Below are positions 7,820-22,248 of a DNA stretch of 64,000 bases, in pieces. Origin of the DNA: a virus; the IMG/VR virus record IMGVR_UViG_3300044631_002183, positions 1-64,000 of that record. One strand, written 5' to 3'. A program made the translations under genes and the position numbers. Below the pieces are notes generated by a model, which was not told the DNA's origin, did no database searches, and saw only the letters and a list, made by a program, of their open reading frames with translations. Every line of letters begins with the position of its first letter. Position 1 is the first letter of the stretch.

Positions 7820-8707
7820 ATGAGCCCAGACATGCAACTAAAGTGGAAAATCAACCAAATGGACTGCTACCCTGAATTCAGCGGAGCAACTGATTATGTA
7901 TTTAATGTCCACTGGGATTGCTTGTCTTACTACAATGGTCCAAGCGGCGGTCCATACTACGGAAGAACTTATGGAGTAACCAGTGTCCCTTCTTCGCCGG
8001 GGCCATTTACGCCATATATTGATCTTGAAGAAACTCAAGTTTTTAGTTGGGTTTACTCAGCAATGCCTTCTGGAGATAAAGAAAAATTTGAAGAAAAAGC
8101 TGTCCAAGAAATCATAAATCAAATCAATCCCCCAATTGTCACTCCTCCTAATCCTTGGCCTACTGATGTGTTTCCAGTAATTGCTCCATCTATTACAATA
8201 CAGCCTCAATCTGGCATTTCTTTGTGGTCTGGTCAAAATATTTATGTATCATTAATGGCTGCTGGCCAACCTCTAAATTATCAATGGAGAAAAGATTCTG
8301 TTGATCTAGCTGGAGTTACTGGAGAAGGTCTAGAAATTACAAATATCCAAGTCGATCAAGCTGGTCTTTATGATGTTGTAATATCTAATTCTCTAGGATC
8401 AGTTACAAGTTCTGGATGCCAAATTTCCGTTGCTCCTCCAGTCGTTCCAGTAATATTAAATCAACCAGTAGGAGGAGAAGCCACCACTGGATCTTCGTTT
8501 ATATTTAATGTGATGGCGACAGGATATCCATCTCCATCTTATCAATGGACTTTTAATGGATCTGAAATCTCTGGAGCCATATGGCCAGGGTATAATCTTG
8601 TAAATGTACAAGAGAATCAAGCCGGAGATTATGCAGTTAAAGTATACAATACTGCTGGAGAAGTTCTAAGCAGTGTTGCTCATTTGGATGTCATTATTCC
8701 AATTTGA
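7820..8707 (+). CDS. virion accessory protein: small phage N-terminal domain plus two immunoglobulin-like domains
   Basis: N-terminal W.I.QMDCYP...VFNVHW domain seen next to phage tail fibres, then two Ig repeats (PSITIQPQS...YQWRKD...AGLYDVVISNSLGSVTS; PVILNQP...YQWTFNG...AGDYAVKVYNTAG). Confidence 0.75.
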   Translation: MSPDMQLKWKINQMDCYPEFSGATDYVFNVHWDCLSYYNGPSGGPYYGRTYGVTSVPSSPGPFTPYIDLEETQVFSWVYSAMPSGDKEKFEEKAVQEIINQINPPIVTPPNPWPTDVFPVIAPSITIQPQSGISLWSGQNIYVSLMAAGQPLNYQWRKDSVDLAGVTGEGLEITNIQVDQAGLYDVVISNSLGSVTSSGCQISVAPPVVPVILNQPVGGEATTGSSFIFNVMATGYPSPSYQWTFNGSEISGAIWPGYNLVNVQENQAGDYAVKVYNTAGEVLSSVAHLDVIIPI

Positions 8708-12239: not shown

Positions 12240-12953
12240 ATGAAAGAAAAATGGCTACATAGTTTTGAAGTCGAAAAGGCTCAAAAGGTAAAGGAAACAA
12301 CTACCGAAGTTAACGAAGCTGGAGAAGAGATCCAGATCACTAAGGAAGTCGAGAAGAAGGTTCCCCATAAGTTCTATATTCTAAAGCCAAATCGCAAGAT
12401 CCAAGACGAGGCGAGCGTATTTTATTCAGTAAAGGTATCAGAAGGAATTAAACTTGGTCTTGTTACTAAGAATTATCTTTTGCGCAAATTTCAGCAGGAT
12501 GGCATTCTAGCTTCTGAAGACGAGAAGAAGATCCACGCCGACAACTATTCCAAAGCTATAGGAATTGAAATCGAGCTAGAAAAAATCAAGCAAGACTCTA
12601 CCCTTAGCCAAGCAGAGAAAGATCTAAAGAATGAAACTCTAAATACTGAGTATCAGGTTTTGCGCCAAAAGATTTTTGATTATGAGAACGTGCAGAATTC
12701 TTTGTTTGATAATACAGCAGAGAAGAGAGCGTCAGATGCTTTGAATTTGTGGTTTGTTTTGAATTTGCTTTATCAAGGAGAGGAAGGGTCTCAGACTTGT
12801 CTTTTCGGAGATGGCTCATTTGATCAAAAGGTCCAAAGGCTTGCGCAGATAGAAGAGTCAGGAGACGAGTTCTTGAGTGGTGTTGTAGAAAAGGGTGGTT
12901 TCCTTATCGGACAATTAAACTCTGGAGTTCCTAAAGAAGACTTGATCGGATAA
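12240..12953 (+). CDS. putative tail assembly chaperone
   Basis: Charged coiled-coil protein between the tail tube and TMP genes. Confidence 0.45.
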   Translation: MKEKWLHSFEVEKAQKVKETTTEVNEAGEEIQITKEVEKKVPHKFYILKPNRKIQDEASVFYSVKVSEGIKLGLVTKNYLLRKFQQDGILASEDEKKIHADNYSKAIGIEIELEKIKQDSTLSQAEKDLKNETLNTEYQVLRQKIFDYENVQNSLFDNTAEKRASDALNLWFVLNLLYQGEEGSQTCLFGDGSFDQKVQRLAQIEESGDEFLSGVVEKGGFLIGQLNSGVPKEDLIG

Positions 12954-12959
12954 TGAAGC

Positions 12960-13955
12960 GTGAGCGATCTTTATGAAAAAGTAAGCTTTTACAAAGGCTT
13001 ATATAAAGAGATAGCAGTAGGCTTTTCTGAGGATAAATACTTAGAGAAGCCTATTTTTATTAAGCATTTTACAGAGCTAGAGAATGGAGATCTCGACTCT
13101 CATAGAAGAGCTTTCCACAAAGAGGCATTAAGTAAAGGACTAGAAATAAAAGAAGAGAAGTTAACTTTTTTAATAAGGAATCAACTCTGGTCCAATGAAA
13201 AAGAAAAAGAAATAGCCCAAATTTCAAAACAGATTTCCGACACAGAGATGTTGATAAGAAATCTAATAATTAAAAAACAAATAAACGACGCTAAGAATAA
13301 AATCAAAGCCCTTAAAAAGTCTCTTTCTGATTTGGAGAATGAAAGATCAGATATGCTAGGATTTTGCGCTGAAGATTATACCGGTAAGAAGCTTAATGAG
13401 TTGATTATTTATCTTTCGTTTTTTAAAGATAAGGATCTGCAAGAAAAGTTTTTTACACTAGAAGATTTCGATGCTTTATCAGATAGAGATTTGTCAGATC
13501 TTGTAGAAATATTGTCTCGCTTTTACACTAGGTTCGATATTGAAAAAATAAAAAGAATTTGCGCCTCTTCTTTTTTTATGAGTCTTTTTTCTTTGTGTGA
13601 TAATAGCCCATATAACTTCTTTGGTAAATATATTAAAGATTTGACTATATTACAAGTCAACTTGTTTTCTCAAGCAAGGTATTTCAAGTCTCTTATTGAG
13701 AGCCAAGCTCAAAGCAATCCTCCTTCTGATGTTACTTCTGATCCAGATAAAATGGTAGAATGGTACGAATCTATTGAAAGCTCTGCTAGAACAGCGAGCG
13801 CATCAGGAAACTCTAGCGGCGTTGGTTATGTTGGAGCTACAAGAGAAGAGCTGGAGAAGATGGCTGGCGGAAAAGCTGTCACTTTGAATGAAATAGCTGC
13901 TAAAAATGGCGGAAAGCTCACCAAGGAAGATTTTATCAAAATGCATGGATTATAG
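12960..13955 (+). CDS. putative tail assembly chaperone 2
   Basis: GTG start; coiled-coil; C-terminal PPSDV..DPD.M..W motif; immediately upstream of TMP. Confidence 0.45.
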   Translation: MSDLYEKVSFYKGLYKEIAVGFSEDKYLEKPIFIKHFTELENGDLDSHRRAFHKEALSKGLEIKEEKLTFLIRNQLWSNEKEKEIAQISKQISDTEMLIRNLIIKKQINDAKNKIKALKKSLSDLENERSDMLGFCAEDYTGKKLNELIIYLSFFKDKDLQEKFFTLEDFDALSDRDLSDLVEILSRFYTRFDIEKIKRICASSFFMSLFSLCDNSPYNFFGKYIKDLTILQVNLFSQARYFKSLIESQAQSNPPSDVTSDPDKMVEWYESIESSARTASASGNSSGVGYVGATREELEKMAGGKAVTLNEIAAKNGGKLTKEDFIKMHGL

Positions 13956-13980: not shown

Positions 13981-16900
13981 ATGCCTACTAACGTTCAAGC
14001 CAATCTACTTTTAAATACCGCTCCTGCGCAAGCGTCTTTCAATAATTTTGCAAGAGCGATTGGTTCTGCTAAATTTGCCCAACCTCTTGGAAGAATTACT
14101 GGGGATGCTACAGAATTTAGAAAGTCTTTGGAGGCTGCTACCGCTCGCGTAACGGCATTCGGATTAACTGCTGGAGCAATATATAAAGTTTCTCAAGCAA
14201 TTAGAGAAGGAGCTAAGGCTACACTAGAAGTAGACAAGCAATTAGTAGAATTAAATACCTATTTAGGGCAATCAAGAAAAGAACTAGAAGGCTTCTCTCA
14301 ATCTCTATTTAAAGTAGCTAAAAACGCAGCAGTTCCTTTTGAAGCAGCCTCAGAAGCGGCAAAAGAATTCGCAAGACAAGGTTTATCTGCTAACGAAATA
14401 TTAAAAAGAACAGAGAGTGCTCTAACACTAGCAAGAATATCTGGTATTAGTTATTCTCAAGCTGTAAATGGTATAACCACAGCTCTTAATAGCTTTAGCA
14501 AAGAAGCTCTAACAGCATCAGAGATAACAAATAAATTAATTGCTGTTGATACAAGATTTGCTGTAAGCTCTGCTCAGTTGAACGAAGCTCTTACCCGTGT
14601 AGGTAGTTCTGCCGAGGAAAGCGGTATTAGCATCGACAAATTGATCGCTACAGTTACTGCCGCGCAGCAAATCACAGGTCGTGGTGGCGCTGTAATTGGT
14701 AACGCCTTAAAGACGATTTTCACTCGTTTGCAAAGACCAGAAGTTCTAAGCCAATTAGAGCAGCTTGGCGTAGCTATCAAAGATCAAAATGGATTTTTAT
14801 TAGATGGCATAAGCATATTAAAGAACTATTCTGACGCTACAAAGAACTTAAGCCAAGCAGAGAAAGCAAGAACAGCAGAACTAGTTGGTGGTATCTATCA
14901 AATCAACCAAGTTAATGCTTTAATTAAAGATCTTTCCAGTTCTAATAGTATTTATGCAAATGCTTTAAAAATTTCTAGCGCAGCCACAGATGAAGCTAAG
15001 AAAAAGAATGAAGAGTTAAATAAAAGCTTATCTGCTTTATTAGAGCAAACTAAAACTTCTGCTCAACAAGCTGCCGCAGCTTTAGGTCAGTCTTTATTAG
15101 AGCCAATAGTAAAATTAGGAAGCGCTGCTTCTGAGGCTTTATTAAAAATAGTAGATCCAAATAGCGTCGGAGAAGAAATGGGCGCTGCTATTGCTAAAGG
15201 AGCGGCTTCTGCGCTTGGTAGAGGACTAGTTATGGGCGGCGGTCCTCTTTTAGCTGCGACTGGCGGATTGCTTGCTGCAAAAATGTTTAAATATGTAAGC
15301 GCTTCTGCTAAAGAATTAGGTAGATTTAGCACAGACATGTTCACCTCTGAAAAAGAGTTGCAAATACAAAAAAGAATTAATGATACATTAAGACAAAGCC
15401 CCGGAATTATTGCAGATGTAAGATCAGGCAAGATGAGTTTGGTAGACGCAGAGACAGAAGTCTTGAGATTGATACAGGAGCAAAATAGAAATCTCCTGAC
15501 TCAATCTAGGATAACGGGCAGAGTGACTTCTACAGTAACAACAGCGCAAAACGCTTCTAAAAAAGGTTTCTTTGGAAGAATATTTGCTGATGGATATGTT
15601 CCAGACCTTAGTTCTTCAGTAGGTTTAGCTGCGCTAGAAGAAAATACTGCTAGAAGAATGGGTGCTAAAAATCCAAAAGCGAGAATGGTCCAAGCCACCA
15701 TAAAAGGCAAAACCGGACCAGTCATGGTCAACGATCAAGAAAAAGTAATTCCTAATTATGCGGGAACCGGAGAGACAGCTATTATTCCTAATTATAGAAA
15801 ATTTAATGACATCCCTAGAATGTCTAAGGGATATGTGCCAAATTTTGCTTTTGATTCTCTAAAAACTTGGTATACTAGAGATAGAAAAATCGTAGATCCA
15901 GAAACTTATAGTTATCTTAGATACGCATTAACTAAAGATAAAAAAGCTATTAACTTAGTCTTTTCTAAAAGCGAGCAAAAAGGTCAAGGTTGGCAAATGT
16001 TTGAAAGGCTCGGCAAAACAGCTAAGAGAATAGGTCTTCCAGTAAAAAGCGATGTATTGTCATCTCAAGCCAATGATGTCCTTGATATTTCTGACGCATC
16101 TTTAGCTAAAGCTGGTAAATATGGAATAGAAGAGGTATTAAAAGTTGCATATCCACAATTAATTTATAGACAAAAAGGCTCTTCCAAAGGCACTTCATTG
16201 TCAGTAAATCTTGATAATGGTTTAAATAATACTTCCACTGAGTTAAGCGGCAAAAATATTTTTTCTATAGTTTCAGAATTTGCCTCCAAGCAATATAAAG
16301 GTGACTCAAAGCTTTTAAGAAATAGTATTATTGATGGAAGTTTTGACTTGCAGAATATAGTTACAAATTTCGCTGGTGGTCGCATTCCTAATTTTGCTAA
16401 AAAAGATAGATATAAATTTCCAAGCATTTCTTCCGCTAAAATGGAAGCGAATATTGGTAGAAATTTTGAAAAGCTAAGCCCTGAGAATCAAAGATATTTC
16501 GCCAGAGCTTATGAAGATTATAATAATCTAATAAAAGTGTTCTCTAAGGCTTCTGGCTCTTCTCCAGAAAAATTTGCTAATGTAATGTCGGCTCTTTCTC
16601 CTGCTAATCCATTAGAAAGAAATGCTTTAGATGCTTTAAGATACAATCTTTATACTCAAAAGAAACTATCAACAATAGCTTCTCCAATTTTCTTAGATGA
16701 AAGAGAAATAGGATCAGTAAAGGCCCAAACTTATGGAGCCAATAGAACTAAGGCTGCAAATTTACTTGTTGGTTTAGAAAAGCTTACAGGAAATAAGAGA
16801 AAAGCATTCCTAAATAACATGTTAGATCCTTTCGGCAGCACAGATGTCACTGTCGATTATAGAGCTCAAGGGGATGCGTTAGGAAAATCTTTTAATGTAA

Positions 16901-19900
16901 AAAATGCTCCCTCTATGAATAGAGAGCAATACGATAAGGTTTCTCAAGCCTTTAGAAATGTCGGCGCTAAAGCTGGAGTTAGTGGCTTAGGGGTGCAAGC
17001 TGCCACTTGGATTGGCCAGCGAATGAATACAAAAGCTGCTAAAGGCCAAGATCTCAACAGAGGAATCCTTAAGTTTTTCTACGATAATCCAGATAAGATT
17101 AGCTTAGAGAATTTAGAGTTTTTGCTTTCTGTCCCCGCCAAAGGAAAAGCTAGAAAACAATTTTTTAAGACAGCTTCGGCAATGGGTGTTTCTAAATTAT
17201 CACCAGATAGTTTAATTACGATACCAAGAGCTGCTGGTGGTTATATTCCTAACTTTGCTGGTCTGTCTAATGCCATAAGCAGAGAAAAAACAATGAGTGG
17301 ATTGCCTGCCTCTCAAATCATGGCTCATTTTGATGGCAAAGGAAATCCTCTTGCAGTAACAAATAAAAGAGACGAGCCTCGTGGGTTACAAGATGTTCCA
17401 AATTTTGCTATTCCTAGATCTTTATTAAAGCGCTTTGCTCAATTCAAGCGCGGCACTTTTGGGAATCCAATATCTGCCAGCTTAGAAGTTCTACAAGGAA
17501 GCTTTCTATCAAGCATTGTAGACCAATTAGCTGAGGCAGAAAAAATTTCGGCTGAAGCTTCTGCACTTACCACTGGAGGTGTGCCTACTGCTTATGGTTT
17601 AAAAAATATAGGCAGAGGAATATTCGGCAAAGGATCTAGCCTGCAAAAAGGATTCTCAATCGCAAGCGGTTTGGGCCAAGTAGCATATGGAATTGGCGTA
17701 GGGTCTCAAGCTGGGGATGATGTTAGAAGAAGAATAAATGAAAAAAGATACGAAGAGGCTCTAGACCGCTCCAGAAAGACATATCAAGATTTAACTGAAA
17801 ATACTTTAGAGCTTTCTAATACTTTAGCTAAACTAGACGCCGCTTATAGAGATCCAAAAGCAGATCCTAAGCAAATAACTAAACTAGCAAAAATTAGAGA
17901 AGACTTAATAAATAAAGTAAGCCTAAAAAATCCAGAGCTTGTTTCAAAGTTAGCCTCAGAGCAAAGCATTGAGGGCAAGATAAATATCCTTGAGGAAAAC
18001 ACCAAGGAAAGCCAAAGACAACAATCAATAAGAGAGCAAGCCTTAAAGTTTTCTGCAAGAGGAGCAATTTCTGGGAAAGAAGCCCCAAAAGAAATCGGAG
18101 ACTTTTTCGCTTCCATAATAAATGCTGGAAATGAAAATATCTTAAAGCAAGATCTATCTAAGGCTACAACAGCTAATTTTGGAGATGTTCTTAAAGCAGG
18201 AGGTTTAAATGTAGAGGAGCTTTCTAATGTATTTAAGACTGATGATTTAAAGAAAGCGTTTATAGACGCCTTAAAGGTAACTCAAAAATTAAGCGAACTT
18301 TCAACAAGACAAGAAAGAGACATTACTGCTCTGTCTAGGCCATTAGCCGTACAGCAACAAAGAGTAGCTGATGCAAAAGAAGTAAGAGGAGAAATAAGAA
18401 AAGCTTTGCAAGAGCAATTGCCAGAACTCGCTTCATTCGCTGGAACATTCAGCAAGAGAGCGGGGCTATCTGCTTCTTCTGATGCTGCGTTAGCAATCAA
18501 GAGAACTGATGCTGCTGTTTCTTTTCAAAATTCTCTATTGGCTCAACTTTCTGACAAAGAATTCGCCAAAGGATTGCCTTCTGAAGTAGAAAGCAGATTA
18601 AGAAATATTGATGCCCCAGGAAAAGCTGCTGCTAAAGAATTAGAGACTTTAAAATCTCTACCAGGCCTTAGCGAGAAACAGATAGAAGGATTAGATAAGT
18701 TGATTGGCTTCAATTCTCAACAAGCTAGATCGGTAGAAAAAGCTACAATCATAGCTAATGAGACTAAAAATATACAACTTAAATTCTTGGCTCTACAAGA
18801 GAAGTTGGCATTCGGCGGAGACATTAGAACTTCTATTAATCCTCAAATGAGGAACGAGGCAATGGCTGCTGGAATTCGCGGACCATTGACTTATCAATTA
18901 GGTGGATTGTTAGGCTCTAGAAGAACTCAAGTCGGAGGAGCAGTTGATTTCTTGACTGATACAATACAAAAATATCCTGGTCTTTTGCAAACTAAAGGCG
19001 GAAAAGAGCCAATGGATATACAAGCCGTAAAGAGAGAGCTTACTGGCATAAACGCTATGGATATGCAACGCGATCTACTCAAGAGAGCTGGCATGGCTCA
19101 AATGATGGGTCTCGGGCAAACTTCAGGTTTATTAAGATCAAAGGCTTTTGATCAAGGCTATCTTATGGAATCTGCTGGATTAAAGGCCAGCGCTTTATTC
19201 GGAGGCCCAGAGGTTCCTGAAGAAATTAAAAACGCAATGGGAGAGTATGAGAGATTCAATGTCCAATCTGCTAGACAATCAAGAGCAGAAGACGCTGCCC
19301 TTAAAACAGTAGAAGATTTCTTTGTCCCATTAAAACAAAAAATTACAGATCAATTCACAACAGAAGGAAATCAATTAGCTAAGTCTTTCCAAGAAAGCTT
19401 AAAAACTACTTTTGGAGATAAAGGAATAATAGCAAGTATAGTAAATGTTACTACTGAAAAAATTAACTCAATTGGCTCTTCAGGTAATACAGCAACTACT
19501 CCTGTAGTGCAAAATTTTGCTAATCCAATTAACGATGCAGTAACTAGAGAAAAGATGGCTTTAGGTAGAAGAGGAATAATAGGAGTTCCTAATTTTGCTA
19601 TGGCTTCTATTAATCTAGAGAGAAGCCCAGATTTAGTTACCAGCTCTAATCCTCAAGGCTTTGGAGTAACAAATAGTATAGACGAAAAGAATGGTTTGAG
19701 AAGTTTGGGGATGAGATCTAGTGGATTTGTTCCTAATTTCGCTAAATCTAGAATGGAAGAATTACTAGAAAGAATATATGGCCCAAGAGCGGATGCTCCT
19801 AAACCAGTTGTTCCTTCTCCTCCAGCCCCCATACTAGGAGTATCTCAAAAAACAATGCCTTTCTACCCAGAAAGATTGGTCAATGAGACTTATCCATATG

Positions 19901-22248
19901 GCTCCAAGCCAAGCATTGGCAACGTAAATCCTACAGCCAAACCACAAAAATCACTGCCTAAAAGAGATCCTAAAACTGGAAGATTTTTATCAAAATCTCA
20001 GAGCGATTTAATGGAGAAAATAGAGCAGGGGAAATTAGCTAAAGCAGCAAAAAAGGCTCAATTAGCGCAAGGATCTCCATCTGGATTCTCTAGTTTGTTA
20101 GCAAAACCAGGACTGCAACAAATGCTCGCTTTGACTCCAGAAGAGCAAGCTAGAATTAGAAGAGGCGCATTCGAATCAAGCCAAAGAGCTGGCGCGGCTC
20201 AAATGGCTGAATATCAAAGAGTATTTTTGGCTCAAAAAGCTTCAGAATTACAACCTAGCGCAGCGTCTCGTGGATTAAATATTTTGCCAAAAGGTCAATT
20301 TCCTACTCCACTTTTTTCTGGCAAAAATGTATCTCCATTAGGTCTATTGCCTAGAGGTCAAGGAACTTTTAAGGGCCAGGCTTTTGTTCCTAATGTGCGA
20401 GTCGCATCAGGGCCTTTGAGCTTGCAATCAAAAAGCGGAATTACTTCTCCATCTTTAAGATTGTCTAACTACAGAGCTGCTTCTGCTGGTACTGGCTCTT
20501 ATTTAGATGCGTTTCTAGTCGGTAATGAAGAAAATTTCAAAATAGCAGCGGAGAACGAAAGGCAAGCTGCTGCAAATAGATATTTTCAAAAAACAGAACC
20601 TCTTAGACAAGCTCAAAGAGAGCAGAGTCTGAAGCAAGTCGCTCAAGCTGCTGAAAATGCTAAAAAGGGACAAAGAGTAAATATTTCAGAAATTGCTAAA
20701 AGATTTGACGCGAGATCTTCAACAAAAGCTGGCAGAATTGATTTGACTGAAATAGCTAGAAGGGCAAGAGAAAATGCTCCAAGTAATTTCAAAGAATACA
20801 CTTCCGAAGAAGTTAAAAATATTCTTTCTAAAAAGCCATCGACTCCTTCTGCTTCTATTGTAACTCCAAAAACTTCTGGAATTTTAGGAAAAGTAAAATC
20901 TTCCGCAGGCATAGGCTTAAAAGGTCTTGGTATATTAGGAGGAGTGGCAGAGGCTTATGATGCATACGCGAATATACAAGCTGGAAATTATGGAAAAGCA
21001 GCTCTCTCTGGCGTTTCATCAGCTCTAAGCTTCGGTAGTTTATTAGGCGGTACAGTCGGTGCTGCGGCTGGAGGAGCAGGTTTGGTTTTAGCTGCTGGCG
21101 TAGGCGGTTACAAGTTAGGAAACATAATAGAAGAAAAAATCGGGCTTGGAGAAGCGATGGGAAATCTTTTTTCAGGGTCTGCGACATCAATGGCTAGACA
21201 AGCTGGAAAGAGAAATCTTAGAGAGATGTCTTCTAGAGAAGCTTATGATTCTGATCAAATAATATATAGAAAGATGCAGCTCTTGAATGAGGCCAATAGA
21301 TATAACAGAGCCTCTGGCAATCCTGCTCTTTCTTTTGAGAGCGGCTTGGCTAGAGCAAAAGCAGCCCAAGAAAGAAAAGACGAGCAAGATATAGTCACAT
21401 TAAGAGGAAATTTAGATAAAGAAAGCGAAGCGACTAGAGCAGAAATAGCTGCTAGAGCTGCTGGAGCGGGGGCGGCTGAAACAGCCAGATTAAATAAACA
21501 ATCCACCGCTGAAGAAGACGCTAGAAGCTCATCTCTAAGAAGATCTTTCCTTGAGTCTTTTGATAAAAACGCTGAGTCCGCTGGTTATCTAACTACTCAA
21601 GACAGGGTAAATTTCTTATTGGGTCAAGAAGGCAAGAATGGTCTCGGATCATTTAGGTCTACAGATTTTGCTGATCCAGAATTTGCTAGATCATTCAATA
21701 CTTATAAAGAAGCTAGAAACAAATTCGCTGCTACTGAAGCTCCAACGACATTGGAGTTTAAGAGCATGCAATCTCAAGCTCGTACAGGTTTCTCAGACGA
21801 TGTTTTGAGAGAAGCTGTCGCCAGAGGAGTATCAGCAGAAACCATAGAAGAGGAAAGAGCTCGCAAACAAGCCGCTGCTCAAGGAGCGATTCCTAATTTT
21901 GCTGCAATGAGCAATAGCATGATGTCTTCTGGAGACGTTTACTCTAGAATGAGAGCCACTAGCGCAAGATCTTCTATGGGTAGCTACTCTGGGGGATACA
22001 TTCCAAACTTCGCCGCTGGAGACTTTACAAATGCCATAACAGAAGCTCTAAGAAATGGAATAACATCAGCTTTCCCTGATGGACCTTCTTCAAGTTCCGT
22101 TTCTAACTCTAATGTCATCAATATAGACGGAAGAGCATCCATACAAAATGCTCCTGATGAGGCTATGCAAGGAATTATCAGCATATTGTTTGATAAGATT
22201 CCTGAACTAAAGAAACTAGGACCAGCAGCCTTGAATTTCAAGAGATAA
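13981..22248 (+). CDS. tape measure protein (TP901-type core) with PNFA-delimited accessory domains
   Basis: N-terminal TP901-like core (EFARQG, DTRFAVSSAQL.EAL.R.GS, G.VIGNALKTIFTRL); Ala/Gly-rich helical regions; late Gly-zipper hydrophobic segment; canonical position. Confidence 0.9.
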   Translation: MPTNVQANLLLNTAPAQASFNNFARAIGSAKFAQPLGRITGDATEFRKSLEAATARVTAFGLTAGAIYKVSQAIREGAKATLEVDKQLVELNTYLGQSRKELEGFSQSLFKVAKNAAVPFEAASEAAKEFARQGLSANEILKRTESALTLARISGISYSQAVNGITTALNSFSKEALTASEITNKLIAVDTRFAVSSAQLNEALTRVGSSAEESGISIDKLIATVTAAQQITGRGGAVIGNALKTIFTRLQRPEVLSQLEQLGVAIKDQNGFLLDGISILKNYSDATKNLSQAEKARTAELVGGIYQINQVNALIKDLSSSNSIYANALKISSAATDEAKKKNEELNKSLSALLEQTKTSAQQAAAALGQSLLEPIVKLGSAASEALLKIVDPNSVGEEMGAAIAKGAASALGRGLVMGGGPLLAATGGLLAAKMFKYVSASAKELGRFSTDMFTSEKELQIQKRINDTLRQSPGIIADVRSGKMSLVDAETEVLRLIQEQNRNLLTQSRITGRVTSTVTTAQNASKKGFFGRIFADGYVPDLSSSVGLAALEENTARRMGAKNPKARMVQATIKGKTGPVMVNDQEKVIPNYAGTGETAIIPNYRKFNDIPRMSKGYVPNFAFDSLKTWYTRDRKIVDPETYSYLRYALTKDKKAINLVFSKSEQKGQGWQMFERLGKTAKRIGLPVKSDVLSSQANDVLDISDASLAKAGKYGIEEVLKVAYPQLIYRQKGSSKGTSLSVNLDNGLNNTSTELSGKNIFSIVSEFASKQYKGDSKLLRNSIIDGSFDLQNIVTNFAGGRIPNFAKKDRYKFPSISSAKMEANIGRNFEKLSPENQRYFARAYEDYNNLIKVFSKASGSSPEKFANVMSALSPANPLERNALDALRYNLYTQKKLSTIASPIFLDEREIGSVKAQTYGANRTKAANLLVGLEKLTGNKRKAFLNNMLDPFGSTDVTVDYRAQGDALGKSFNVKNAPSMNREQYDKVSQAFRNVGAKAGVSGLGVQAATWIGQRMNTKAAKGQDLNRGILKFFYDNPDKISLENLEFLLSVPAKGKARKQFFKTASAMGVSKLSPDSLITIPRAAGGYIPNFAGLSNAISREKTMSGLPASQIMAHFDGKGNPLAVTNKRDEPRGLQDVPNFAIPRSLLKRFAQFKRGTFGNPISASLEVLQGSFLSSIVDQLAEAEKISAEASALTTGGVPTAYGLKNIGRGIFGKGSSLQKGFSIASGLGQVAYGIGVGSQAGDDVRRRINEKRYEEALDRSRKTYQDLTENTLELSNTLAKLDAAYRDPKADPKQITKLAKIREDLINKVSLKNPELVSKLASEQSIEGKINILEENTKESQRQQSIREQALKFSARGAISGKEAPKEIGDFFASIINAGNENILKQDLSKATTANFGDVLKAGGLNVEELSNVFKTDDLKKAFIDALKVTQKLSELSTRQERDITALSRPLAVQQQRVADAKEVRGEIRKALQEQLPELASFAGTFSKRAGLSASSDAALAIKRTDAAVSFQNSLLAQLSDKEFAKGLPSEVESRLRNIDAPGKAAAKELETLKSLPGLSEKQIEGLDKLIGFNSQQARSVEKATIIANETKNIQLKFLALQEKLAFGGDIRTSINPQMRNEAMAAGIRGPLTYQLGGLLGSRRTQVGGAVDFLTDTIQKYPGLLQTKGGKEPMDIQAVKRELTGINAMDMQRDLLKRAGMAQMMGLGQTSGLLRSKAFDQGYLMESAGLKASALFGGPEVPEEIKNAMGEYERFNVQSARQSRAEDAALKTVEDFFVPLKQKITDQFTTEGNQLAKSFQESLKTTFGDKGIIASIVNVTTEKINSIGSSGNTATTPVVQNFANPINDAVTREKMALGRRGIIGVPNFAMASINLERSPDLVTSSNPQGFGVTNSIDEKNGLRSLGMRSSGFVPNFAKSRMEELLERIYGPRADAPKPVVPSPPAPILGVSQKTMPFYPERLVNETYPYGSKPSIGNVNPTAKPQKSLPKRDPKTGRFLSKSQSDLMEKIEQGKLAKAAKKAQLAQGSPSGFSSLLAKPGLQQMLALTPEEQARIRRGAFESSQRAGAAQMAEYQRVFLAQKASELQPSAASRGLNILPKGQFPTPLFSGKNVSPLGLLPRGQGTFKGQAFVPNVRVASGPLSLQSKSGITSPSLRLSNYRAASAGTGSYLDAFLVGNEENFKIAAENERQAAANRYFQKTEPLRQAQREQSLKQVAQAAENAKKGQRVNISEIAKRFDARSSTKAGRIDLTEIARRARENAPSNFKEYTSEEVKNILSKKPSTPSASIVTPKTSGILGKVKSSAGIGLKGLGILGGVAEAYDAYANIQAGNYGKAALSGVSSALSFGSLLGGTVGAAAGGAGLVLAAGVGGYKLGNIIEEKIGLGEAMGNLFSGSATSMARQAGKRNLREMSSREAYDSDQIIYRKMQLLNEANRYNRASGNPALSFESGLARAKAAQERKDEQDIVTLRGNLDKESEATRAEIAARAAGAGAAETARLNKQSTAEEDARSSSLRRSFLESFDKNAESAGYLTTQDRVNFLLGQEGKNGLGSFRSTDFADPEFARSFNTYKEARNKFAATEAPTTLEFKSMQSQARTGFSDDVLREAVARGVSAETIEEERARKQAAAQGAIPNFAAMSNSMMSSGDVYSRMRATSARSSMGSYSGGYIPNFAAGDFTNAITEALRNGITSAFPDGPSSSSVSNSNVINIDGRASIQNAPDEAMQGIISILFDKIPELKKLGPAALNFKR
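15838..22014 (+). repeat. dispersed peptide repeat PNFA (8 exact copies, often as G(Y/F)(I/V)PNFA) within TMP
   Basis: PNFA starts at about 15838, 16387, 17248, 17398, 19588, 19732, 21892 and 22003; variants GYVPD, IPNYA, IPNYR, TNFA and QNFA also occur. Confidence 0.9.

What the first reader, a model, noticed from the sequence alone, without database searches (positions are those of the whole stretch)
15583..22014. Tape measure protein built as a PNFA-punctuated polyprotein carrying cargo domains
Seen: after the TP901 core, the motif (F/A/Y)(A/S)xG(Y/F)(I/V)PNFA recurs, with 8 exact PNFA plus variants and different codons each time. A ~45-aa module follows it three times: AALEENTARRMG...PVMVNDQEKVIP (~15630), NAISREKTMSG...LAVTNKRDEPRGL (~17270) and DAVTREKMALG...FGVTNSIDEKNGL (~19535). 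The motifs sit at the boundaries of compositionally distinct blocks: two enzyme-like domains, a coiled-coil block, a Pro/Lys-rich block with a Gly zipper, and the terminal domain. Established: TMPs leave the virion during DNA entry, several (lambda gpH, T5 pb2) are proteolytically processed, and FAxGG-type motifs are common near TMP C-termini. Inference: the motif is a multiplied processing or docking signal and an insertion socket, so this TMP may deliver separate effectors into the host before phage transcription.
Basis: partly seen in the sequence, partly recalled or inferred. Interest (0 to 1): 0.82.

Follow-up and report, generated by a model that had tools for sequence, protein, structure and literature searches.

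The report
Tape measure protein with peptide-fenced cassettes
The 2,755-residue tail "ruler" protein of this uncultured phage carries domain-sized modules fenced by one conserved nine-residue peptide, and related phages swap modules exactly at that peptide, so the tail may carry an exchangeable kit of enzymes into the host, though neither cutting nor delivery is shown.

Summary
The ORF at 13981-22248 (+) is a TP901-type tape measure protein (TMP). It has 8 exact PNFA motifs where composition predicts 0.03, plus 3 variants.

- **Motif:** the full form is [AS]-x-G-[YF]-[VI]-P-N-F-A. Selection acts on the peptide, because codons vary as in the rest of the gene.
- **Location:** the motif lies in low-confidence linkers in both AlphaFold models.
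- **Cassette exchange:** relatives gain, lose and replace domain-sized blocks exactly at the motif. The DUF7178 cassette is 88-90% identical in two TMPs whose flanking blocks are 29-35% identical. The nucleotide identity switches within the motif codons.
- **Family size:** a profile search found 1,313 representative proteins, mostly 2,000-5,000 aa. No deposited phage record matches.
- **Cargo:** a weakly GNAT-like block (best Foldseek hit AcrVA5), DUF7178, and an ART-PolyVal domain in one relative. Most cassettes match no Pfam family.

The "insertion socket" reading is well supported. Cleavage, docking and delivery remain untested. This scan found the same architecture at least 8 times on other DNA. 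My paper searches found no description of it.

The parts
13981..22248 (+). Tape measure protein gene, 2,755 aa (P0001)
   Evidence: PF10145 4.1e-27. PHROG TMP families. A source names an identical protein 'TP901 family phage tail tape measure protein'.
14320..14877 (+). PF10145 PhageMin_Tail core (aa 114-299)
15583..15606 (+). Degenerate first motif copy FADGYVPD (aa 535-542). It is a full G[YH]IPNF in distant relatives.
   Evidence: pLDDT below 50.
15616..15807 (+). Small conserved post-core module (aa 546-609): one helix plus four strands, holding the variants VIPNYA (15748-15762) and IIPNYR (15784-15798) as strands
   Evidence: pLDDT 76-82. Conserved in 69 loci.
15823..15849 (+). Motif copy 1, MSKGYVPNFA region (PNFA at aa 620)
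   Evidence: pLDDT below 50.
15850..16398 (+). Cassette M183 (aa 624-806), alpha/beta, weakly GNAT-like. It ends in motif copy 2 (16372-16398, PNFA at aa 803).
16399..17259 (+). Cassette J287 (aa 807-1093), DUF7178. It ends in motif copy 3 (17233-17259, PNFA at aa 1090).
17260..17409 (+). Conserved 50-aa module D (aa 1094-1143). It ends in motif copy 4 (17383-17409).
   Evidence: tblastn hits in 73 of 81 loci.
17410..19599 (+). Conserved 730-aa scaffold block B (48% A/E/L/K/Q/R). It ends in motif copy 5 (19573-19599).
19600..19743 (+). Conserved 48-aa module F, homologous to D. It ends in motif copy 6 (19717-19743).
19744..20400 (+). Optional Pro/Lys-rich block V219. It ends in the variant FVPNVR (20374-20400). 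Relatives carry a 145-aa block or nothing at this position.
20401..21903 (+). Variable-length scaffold block C with Gly-rich hydrophobic segments (aa 2305-2372). It ends in motif copy 7 (21877-21903).
21904..22014 (+). 37-aa spacer G ending in motif copy 8 (21988-22014)
22015..22245 (+). Conserved 77-aa C-terminal domain A
12240..13955 (+). Two genes (237 aa and 331 aa) directly upstream, conserved with the TMP across the wide family. By position they are candidate tail assembly chaperones and possible partners of the motif.
   Evidence: 65 and 66 of 81 loci. No family or PDB match.

Best explanation
This is the tape measure protein of a large, uncultured phage lineage, possibly infecting Flavobacteriales. 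It is built as a fixed scaffold with a variable zone.

**Scaffold:** TP901-type core, small beta-rich modules, a long helical block, Gly-rich hydrophobic segments and a C-terminal tip domain.

**Variable zone:** domain-sized cassettes after the core. Each cassette ends in the peptide [AS]-x-G-[YF]-[VI]-P-N-F-A, which sits in a flexible linker.

**Shown:**
- The peptide is conserved at the amino-acid level.
- It marks every module boundary.
- It is the point where relatives insert, delete, replace and horizontally exchange cassettes. Crossovers map to its codons.

**Inferred:**
- The cassettes are polyvalent-protein-type cargo: GNAT-like and DUF7178 here, and an ADP-ribosyltransferase in a relative. 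They would ride in the tail and leave with the TMP at infection.
- The peptide is a handling signal read by one conserved partner.

I favour site-specific cleavage that frees the cassettes, as T5 pb2 is cut between its ruler part and its enzyme domain. I put that at about 35%. Docking or strand addition during tail assembly is about 35%. The remainder covers both together or something else.
For: **Motif is real**
- 8 exact PNFA against 0.03 expected.
- The logo comes from 267 distinct sites.
- 260 sites in 77 TMP genes use 49 different 12-nt spellings, with codon frequencies like the rest of the genes.

**Boundaries**
- Splitting at the motif gives blocks of fixed length that recur at different positions in different relatives.
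- HSP ends lie within 10 aa of a motif in 49% of cases against 7% for random positions.
- Clean 196-aa and 145-aa insertions are bounded by the motif.
- J287 is 88-90% identical where the neighbouring blocks are 29-35% identical.
- Nucleotide identity rises from about 0.25 to 0.8-0.9 within the 30 nt that hold the motif.
- Cassette families share only the last 10-15 residues.

**Linker state**
- Motif regions have pLDDT below 50, next to cores at 70-85.

**Cargo**
- DUF7178. Its family also occurs as stand-alone viral proteins (PHROG 3842; 239-350-aa clusters).
- GNAT-type rows fill the structural search list, and AcrVA5 is the top Foldseek hit.
- ART-PolyVal at 877-1037 lies between PNFA 852 and 1052 in P0050.

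**Family**
- 1,313 representative proteins.
- Motif count rises with protein length, r = 0.74.
- 950 internal blocks fall into 218 families.

**Precedents read**
- T5 pb2 is cleaved after R1127, separating its enzyme domain, and both parts stay in the tail (passages).
- P23-45 gp96 is a TMP-fused virion RNA polymerase found on phage DNA 5 min after infection (passages).
Against: - No protease was found in the TMP or nearby.
- No proteomic data are available.
- P23-45 gp96 is present in virions as the full-sized protein, so delivery does not require cleavage.
- Motif copies only 12, 17 and 37 aa apart would give tiny peptides if every copy were cut.
- The PNYA and PNYR variants are strands of a small fold, which fits a structural role.
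- Most cassettes have no recognisable family. 6 distant TMPs and 11 giants (Pfam, PHROGs) matched essentially only the TMP core.
- Both models have modest confidence (mean pLDDT 62.5 and 60.8).
- The GNAT matches are Z 5.0-6.5 over 56-83 residues, below the tool's own caution line of Z 8.
- Pfam finds no GNAT in the block.
- The HSP-end counts come from non-independent pairs.
- Three folded 180-290-aa domains side by side may not fit a tail-tube lumen (my own knowledge, not tested).
Confidence: 0.6

Rival explanations
1. The motif is a multiplied site-specific cleavage signal. The TMP is a true polyprotein cut into separate effectors, during tail maturation or after ejection, by a phage or host protease.
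For: - The conserved peptide is 7-9 residues long and ends sharply at Ala. The next position is unconstrained.
- It lies in low-confidence linkers.
- Two copies sit 114 and 77 aa from the C-terminus. T5 pb2 is cut after R1127, near the C-terminal end of the protein, to separate an enzyme domain.
- Polyvalent proteins are proposed to be processed after delivery (abstract and passages).
Against: - No protease was identified.
- Copies 12-37 aa apart would give tiny peptides.
- Motif variants form strands inside a small fold.
- P23-45 gp96 works uncleaved.
- The motif is absent from every other ORF in the window and in the flanks of 81 loci, so no shared substrate set points to a maturation protease.
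Confidence: 0.35
2. The motif is a structural docking element. It would be a strand that adds onto the small conserved modules, onto a neighbouring TMP chain, onto the two conserved upstream proteins, or onto the tube wall. This would keep bulky cassettes in register and packable, with no cleavage.
For: - The variants VIPNYA and IIPNYR are predicted strands of the post-core module, which has pLDDT about 80.
- In modules D and F the motif follows a conserved V-T-N-x-x-D-E strand.
- Tandem close copies suit avidity.
- The two upstream genes co-occur with the TMP in 65 and 66 of 81 loci.
- gp96 of P23-45 shows that an enzyme can stay fused to the TMP.
Against: - No multimer model or contact data are available.
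- Motifs are missing from the 730-aa and 500-1,200-aa helical blocks that a chaperone would have to coat.
- Canonical copies are disordered in the monomer models, which neither supports nor excludes binding.
Confidence: 0.35
3. The blocks are not cargo. They are length or spacer modules of the ruler, or structural decorations, and exchange at the motif only tunes tail length.
For: - TMP length varies from about 2,000 to about 5,000 aa, and motif number rises with length (r = 0.74).
- Most blocks have no enzyme signature.
Against: - ART-PolyVal (6.7e-25) and DUF7178 are autonomous domains also found outside TMPs.
- Block M183 folds as an alpha/beta domain, not as a helical ruler.
- Cassette families are unrelated to one another.
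Confidence: 0.15
4. The motif is only a DNA-level recombination linker or scar, with no role as a peptide.
For: - Crossovers map to its codons.
- Copies within the window share up to 15 identical nucleotides.
Against: - The amino acids are fixed while synonymous codons vary as in the background. 49 of the 64 possible spellings are used.
- The motif persists in TMPs whose cores are only 33-38% identical.
Confidence: 0.04

Closest known systems
Polyvalent proteins of phages and conjugative elements (Iyer, Burroughs, Anand, de Souza, Aravind 2017, PMC5512222; abstract and passages read)
   Same: Giant polypeptides that string together unrelated effector domains in highly variable orders. They are proposed to enter the host with the DNA and to be separated on deployment. 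A relative here carries the ART-PolyVal domain itself. A GNAT-like block fits the ART and GNAT content that a follow-up paper mentions.
   Different: The text of that paper has no occurrence of 'tape measure'. Its proteins are tied to zincin-like peptidases and to head packaging. Here no peptidase was found. The carrier is the TMP, and every module ends in one conserved peptide. I could not see that paper's supplementary architecture tables, which might hold TMP fusions.
Thermus phage P23-45 gp96, a tape measure protein fused to a virion RNA polymerase (PMC10770324; passages read)
   Same: A giant TMP (5,002 aa) carries a cytoplasm-acting enzyme. The enzyme is in the virion and is found on phage DNA 5 min after infection.
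   Different: It has one N-terminal enzyme, present as full-sized protein in virions. In the passages I read there is no repeated junction peptide and no cassette exchange.
Phage T5 pb2 (and lambda gpH) processing (PMC10038345; passages read)
   Same: A trimeric TMP is cleaved during tail morphogenesis after R1127, between its hydrophobic stretch and an enzyme domain. Both parts stay in the tail.
   Different: There is a single cut at another sequence, and the enzyme is a cell-wall hydrolase. There is no multi-copy motif and no swappable modules.
Junction motifs of polymorphic toxins and the effector arrays of MARTX toxins
   Same: A short conserved peptide or linker marks where variable toxin or effector modules are exchanged by recombination and, in some systems, released by autoprocessing.
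   Different: Those are bacterial secreted toxins with other motifs and known processing domains. This is a resemblance in logic only.

Membership tests
TP901-family phage tape measure protein (PF10145) | PhageMin_Tail core domain | tested here: met
   PF10145 at aa 114-299, E 4.1e-27, 95.8 bits against a cut-off of 33.2. PHROG TMP families reach 5.9e-46.
TP901-family phage tape measure protein (PF10145) | Position in a tail gene block between chaperone-like genes and distal tail genes | tested here: inconclusive
   Gene order is conserved across loci. An Ig-bearing tail-type protein lies upstream. The immediate neighbours match no family.
TP901-family phage tape measure protein (PF10145) | Gly-rich hydrophobic (membrane-type) segments | tested here: met
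   Hydrophobic windows at aa 2354-2372, 2305-2323 and 415-433. A Gly-zipper Pfam hit, below its cut-off, occurs in relative P0050.
TP901-family phage tape measure protein (PF10145) | Protein length sets tail length | not testable with these tools
   No virion images exist for this uncultured phage.
Polyvalent proteins (Iyer et al. 2017) | Several unrelated effector-type domains in one giant polypeptide, with variable architectures | tested here: met
   A GNAT-like block and DUF7178 here. ART-PolyVal in P0050. Shuffled block orders in 54 relatives. 218 block families in 275 proteins.
Polyvalent proteins (Iyer et al. 2017) | A processing peptidase (zincin-like MPTase or other) in the same protein | tested here: not met
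   No peptidase family appeared in the Pfam scans: 6 close-family proteins (P0001 and 5 relatives), 6 distant TMPs and 11 giants.
Polyvalent proteins (Iyer et al. 2017) | Delivery into the recipient cell with the DNA | not testable with these tools
   Inferred only, from the known ejection of TMPs (for T5, for P23-45).
Viral polyprotein with site-specific cleavage | Conserved short peptide at module boundaries | tested here: met
Viral polyprotein with site-specific cleavage | Cognate protease | tested here: inconclusive
   None was recognised in the TMP or in 19 distinct other window proteins scanned. The head genes may lie outside the window, and no genome is held.
Viral polyprotein with site-specific cleavage | Cleavage products | not testable with these tools
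   This needs virion or infected-cell proteomics.
GNAT acetyltransferase (for cassette M183) | GNAT fold | tested here: inconclusive
   VIA-align gives Z 5.0-6.5 over 56-83 aligned residues, mostly model residues 14-85. 40 of the 50 listed rows are titled acetyl-/acyltransferase or GNAT/GCN5. The Foldseek best hit is AcrVA5, E 0.029. Model pLDDT is 60.8.
GNAT acetyltransferase (for cassette M183) | Sequence family match and the acetyl-CoA motif (Q/R-x-x-G-x-G/A, recalled) | tested here: not met
   Pfam finds no GNAT. The conserved stretch reads S-E-Q-K-G-Q-G, that is E-x-x-G-x-G.

The most novel reading that the evidence does not exclude
The nine-residue peptide is a universal plug-and-release tag. 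Any domain that ends in it can be loaded into the tail as part of the TMP. It is threaded into the host ahead of the DNA and cut free there. These phages would then carry a rapidly exchangeable, pre-made anti-defence and takeover kit of acetyltransferases, ADP-ribosyltransferases and hundreds of unknown domains that acts before any phage gene is transcribed.
Probability: 0.3. Interest if true: 0.88.

Novelty: new variant of a known kind. Interest (0 to 1): 0.72.

Why it matters
TMPs with one embedded enzyme are known, and so are polyvalent injected proteins. I found no description of a TMP family of more than a thousand clusters in which one conserved peptide fences a shuffled library of at least 218 block families.

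If the peptide is a handling or cleavage tag, three things would follow:
- It would define a natural modular protein-delivery system in phage tails.
- It would give a simple sequence rule for mining hundreds of candidate early-acting phage effectors.
- It would offer a testable case of Botstein-type modular exchange at a short conserved junction inside a single gene.

Tried and rejected
**Chance or low complexity:** rejected (expectation 0.03).

**DNA-only linker:** rejected.

**Shared maturation-protease site in other virion proteins:** no motif in any other ORF of the window. None in 250,764 residues of other ORFs in the 81 loci held at that point.

**Cultured relatives**
- tblastn of the whole TMP found only the core, at 24-28% identity, in 139 of 50,697 records.
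- The post-core module and the D module gave no match.

**Stand-alone homologues**
- M183: none among 100 candidates.
- J287: only 2 fragments.
- The Atlas was uninformative for M183 (score 0.80) and useful for J287.

**Fold of the post-core module:** Foldseek found nothing at E <= 0.001. VIA-align best was Z 2.5. The PDB profile search gave 0 hits. The whole TMP against PDB gave nothing below E 0.25.

**Cassette families**
- Pfam on 6 distant TMPs and PHROGs on 11 giants matched only TMP families.
- Pfam on the 11 giants added two marginal hits.
- Pfam PF26092, listed in the precomputed annotations for the proteins that carry the 103-aa block R, was not reported by my Pfam copy. I cannot name it.

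**Neighbouring genes**
- No families except one Ig/DUF7936 tail-type protein.
- No PDB matches for the two upstream proteins.
- Those two genes are separated by TAA TGA, so they are not a read-through pair.

**Alignments and junctions**
- A3 forced unrelated cassettes onto each other and was not folded.
- A5 had 3 misplaced rows, which were dropped to give A6.
- The ungapped right-junction nucleotide comparison was spoiled by one-codon length differences and is not used. The protein-level result stands.

**Host:** of 6 genome-collection loci at 40% identity or more, 4 carry Flavobacteriales labels (Crocinitomicaceae, Flavobacterium twice, Flavobacteriaceae) and 2 carry proteobacterial labels. 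Binning of phage contigs is weak evidence.

**Papers**
- 'PNFA' + 'tape measure': 0.
- IPNFA/VPNFA/GYIPNF/GYVPNF: 17 papers; the 15 listed are unrelated by title.
- 'DUF7178': 0.
- 'tape measure protein' + 'ADP-ribosyltransferase domain': 0.
- 'tape measure protein' + 'polyvalent protein': 6 listings, none on this by title. I read passages of one of them.
- 'tape measure protein' + 'embedded' + 'effector domain': 3 listings, not relevant by title.
- I did not request supplements. Supplementary tables of PMC5512222 and PMC10038345 may bear on TMP fusions and on the T5 cleavage site.
Full report
**What is there**

Window 13981-22248 (+) is a single 2,755-codon ORF.
- It has the PF10145 tape-measure core at aa 114-299 (E 4.1e-27) and DUF7178 at aa 815-1012 (E 1.8e-19).
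- It matches 12 PHROG TMP families through its first ~450 residues, and PHROG 3842 (unknown function, 206-position profile) through the DUF7178 part.
- Exact PNFA occurs 8 times (aa 620, 803, 1090, 1140, 1870, 1918, 2638, 2675). Variants are PNYA at 591, PNYR at 603 and PNVR at 2137. Composition predicts 0.028 PNFA.
- In the 64-kb window the motif is confined to this ORF.
Block 1922-2140 is 11.4% Pro, and Gly-rich hydrophobic stretches lie at 2305-2372.

**The motif**

Among 54 homologues of 1,561-4,722 aa, every one has 2-16 exact PNFA. From 267 distinct sites the logo is [AS]-x-G-[YF]-[VI]-P-N-F-A:
- G at -3 in 189 of 267 sites.
- V, I or L at -1 in all 267.
- No preference after the Ala.

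Across 260 PNFA sites in 77 TMP genes, 49 different 12-nt spellings are used. The synonymous codon frequencies match the rest of the genes. Selection is therefore on the peptide, not on the DNA. Within the window, 5 spellings serve the 8 copies, so "different codons each time" overstates it.

**The motif marks exchangeable modules**

Cutting all 54 proteins at the motif and clustering the pieces gives a constant scaffold: core, then the variable zone, then D50, B (~740), F48, an optional block, C (500-1,200), G37 and A77. The variable zone after the core holds blocks of fixed length (183, 287, 248, 285, 103, 242, 116, ~330, 171, 217, 196 aa and more) in different orders and numbers.

Several tests do not depend on my cutting:
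- **HSP ends.** Of 13,169 internal BLAST HSP ends, 49.2% lie within 10 aa of a motif, against 7.4% of random positions. The median distance is 12 aa against 121 aa. Starts pile up just before the motif and ends just after it. The pairs are not independent.
- **Clean insertions.** P0005 is 96% identical to this protein over the aligned residues and differs by a 196-aa insertion with GYIPNFA on both sides. P0007 has a 145-aa insertion between VPNYA and VPNFA.
- **Unrelated cassettes.** Profile comparisons show that cassette families share only their last 10-15 residues.
- **Horizontal exchange.** In two IMG/VR relatives (L011, L010) the DUF7178 cassette is 90% and 88% identical to the one here. 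The preceding block is 29-35% identical, block B 32% and the core 55%.
- **Different neighbours.** In L011 the cassette has different neighbours on both sides.
- **Crossover point.** At the left junction, nucleotide identity goes from about 0.25 to 0.73-0.77 in the 30 nt that contain the motif codons, and to 0.8-0.9 beyond.

**Size of the family**

- A degenerate-pattern scan of IMG/VR gave 308 stretches encoding relatives, of which 77 distinct loci were kept.
- TMPs whose cores are 33-38% identical still keep a post-core unit: motif, then helix, then G-x-V-I-Y-N-x-x-E, then a PNY variant, then motif.
- A profile of that unit found 1,313 proteins at E <= 1e-3, 1,015 at <= 1e-10 and 390 at <= 1e-30, among 1.84 billion representatives. 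In the 150 listed, the unit usually sits at residues ~505-700 of proteins of 2,000-5,000 aa.
- Of 149 newly listed proteins, 141 have at least one PNFA and 142 have at least two G-[YFHLWM]-[VIL]-P-N-[FY].
- Motif number rises with length (r = 0.74). The common form is about 2,100-2,300 aa with four copies.
- In 275 proteins, 950 internal blocks of 80 aa or more fall into 218 sequence families, 137 of them singletons. The median length is 248 aa.
- No deposited phage record matches the modules.
- Genome-collection hits at 40% identity or more carry Flavobacteriales labels in 4 of 6 cases. This is weak evidence for the host.

**Structure**

AlphaFold2 on aa 500-640 used 70 sequences and gave mean pLDDT 62.5.
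- It predicts a small helix-plus-four-strand unit at aa 546-609 (pLDDT 76-82). The variants VIPNYA and IIPNYR are strands within it.
- The flanking canonical copies have pLDDT below 50.
- No known fold matches this unit.

AlphaFold2 on aa 607-823 used 13 sequences and gave mean pLDDT 60.8.
- It predicts an alpha/beta core at 70-85, with both motif-bearing ends below 50.
- In the structural search the 50 listed rows have Z 5.0-6.5 over 56-83 aligned residues. 40 are titled acetyl-/acyltransferase or GNAT.
- The best Foldseek hit is the anti-CRISPR AcrVA5 (E 0.029, 58 columns, rmsd 1.9).
- These scores are below the tool's caution line, and Pfam sees no GNAT. I call the block GNAT-like, not a GNAT.

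The DUF7178 block resembles clusters of stand-alone viral proteins of 239-350 aa (score 0.94). P0050 carries ART-PolyVal (E 6.7e-25, aa 877-1037) between PNFA 852 and 1052.

**The three small modules**

Modules D and F, together with the F-side helix, are homologous (99.3%, E 5e-20). The post-core module is only weakly similar to them (26.6%).

**How it most likely works**

Shown: a scaffold TMP with a variable array of unrelated, domain-sized blocks. Each block ends in one peptide that is under amino-acid selection. The peptide lies in flexible linkers and is the crossover point for exchange.

Inferred: the blocks are cargo of the polyvalent-protein kind, and they leave the virion with the TMP.

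Two published cases frame what the peptide could do:
- T5 pb2 is a trimer cut after R1127 between its hydrophobic stretch and its enzyme domain, and both parts stay in the tail.
- P23-45 gp96 keeps its virion RNA polymerase fused and is found on phage DNA 5 min after infection.

For cleavage: a sharp C-terminal edge at Ala, linker location, and two copies near the C-terminus.

For docking: copies 12-37 aa apart, motif variants that are strands of a fold, and two upstream genes conserved with the TMP in 65 and 66 of 81 loci.

I cannot separate the two readings with these tools and give them about equal weight. No protease was found. The motif occurs in no other ORF of the window or of the 81 loci.

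**Comparison with what is known**

The closest concepts are the polyvalent proteins of Iyer et al. 2017, whose text never mentions tape measure, and TMPs with a single embedded enzyme. A conserved junction peptide that fences a shuffled cassette library inside a TMP was not found in my searches.

Earlier notes of this scan describe the same architecture in at least 6 other genomes, with the same open questions. I used them for the P23-45 lead and checked that paper myself.

**Verdict**

The socket reading is supported. Cleavage, docking and delivery remain open. This is a new variant of a known kind, and of high interest because it gives a simple rule for finding hundreds of candidate tail-borne effectors.

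Noticed in passing
window 12240-13955 (+): Two genes (237 aa and 331 aa) directly upstream of the TMP are conserved with it in 65 and 66 of 81 related loci, yet match no Pfam, PHROG or PDB entry. They are separated by TAA TGA, so they are not a read-through pair. By position they may be an unusual tail assembly chaperone pair.
   Followed up: partly
window 7820-8707 (+): A 295-aa protein with DUF7936 at the N-terminus and Ig-like domains. It matches PHROG tail, major-tail and Hoc-like families. It is the only neighbour with any family match.
   Followed up: partly
window 22264-52510 (+): A run of very large downstream ORFs (640, 608, 596, 1,170, 461, 190, 1,089, 3,218, 926 and 1,168 aa). The nine that I scanned have no Pfam match, and the 640- and 608-aa ones also have no PHROG match. 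The 3,218-aa ORF was not scanned. The 640- and 608-aa proteins are conserved next to the TMP in the 13 loci that extend that far.
   Followed up: partly
P0050 (relative), aa 877-1037: An ART-PolyVal ADP-ribosyltransferase domain sits as one cassette between two PNFA motifs, directly before a DUF7178 cassette.
   Followed up: partly
P0006-P0008, P0010, P0022, P0026, P0027, P0032 (relatives): The 103-aa block R coincides with a precomputed Pfam label, PF26092. My Pfam copy did not report it, so its name is unknown to me.
   Followed up: no
alignment A4 consensus (11 giant relatives), near the C-terminus: Some distant giants repeat a full copy of the post-core module (motif, then ...Y-N-T-Q-E-S..., then motif) close to the C-terminus, so the small module itself is duplicated within one protein.
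   Followed up: no
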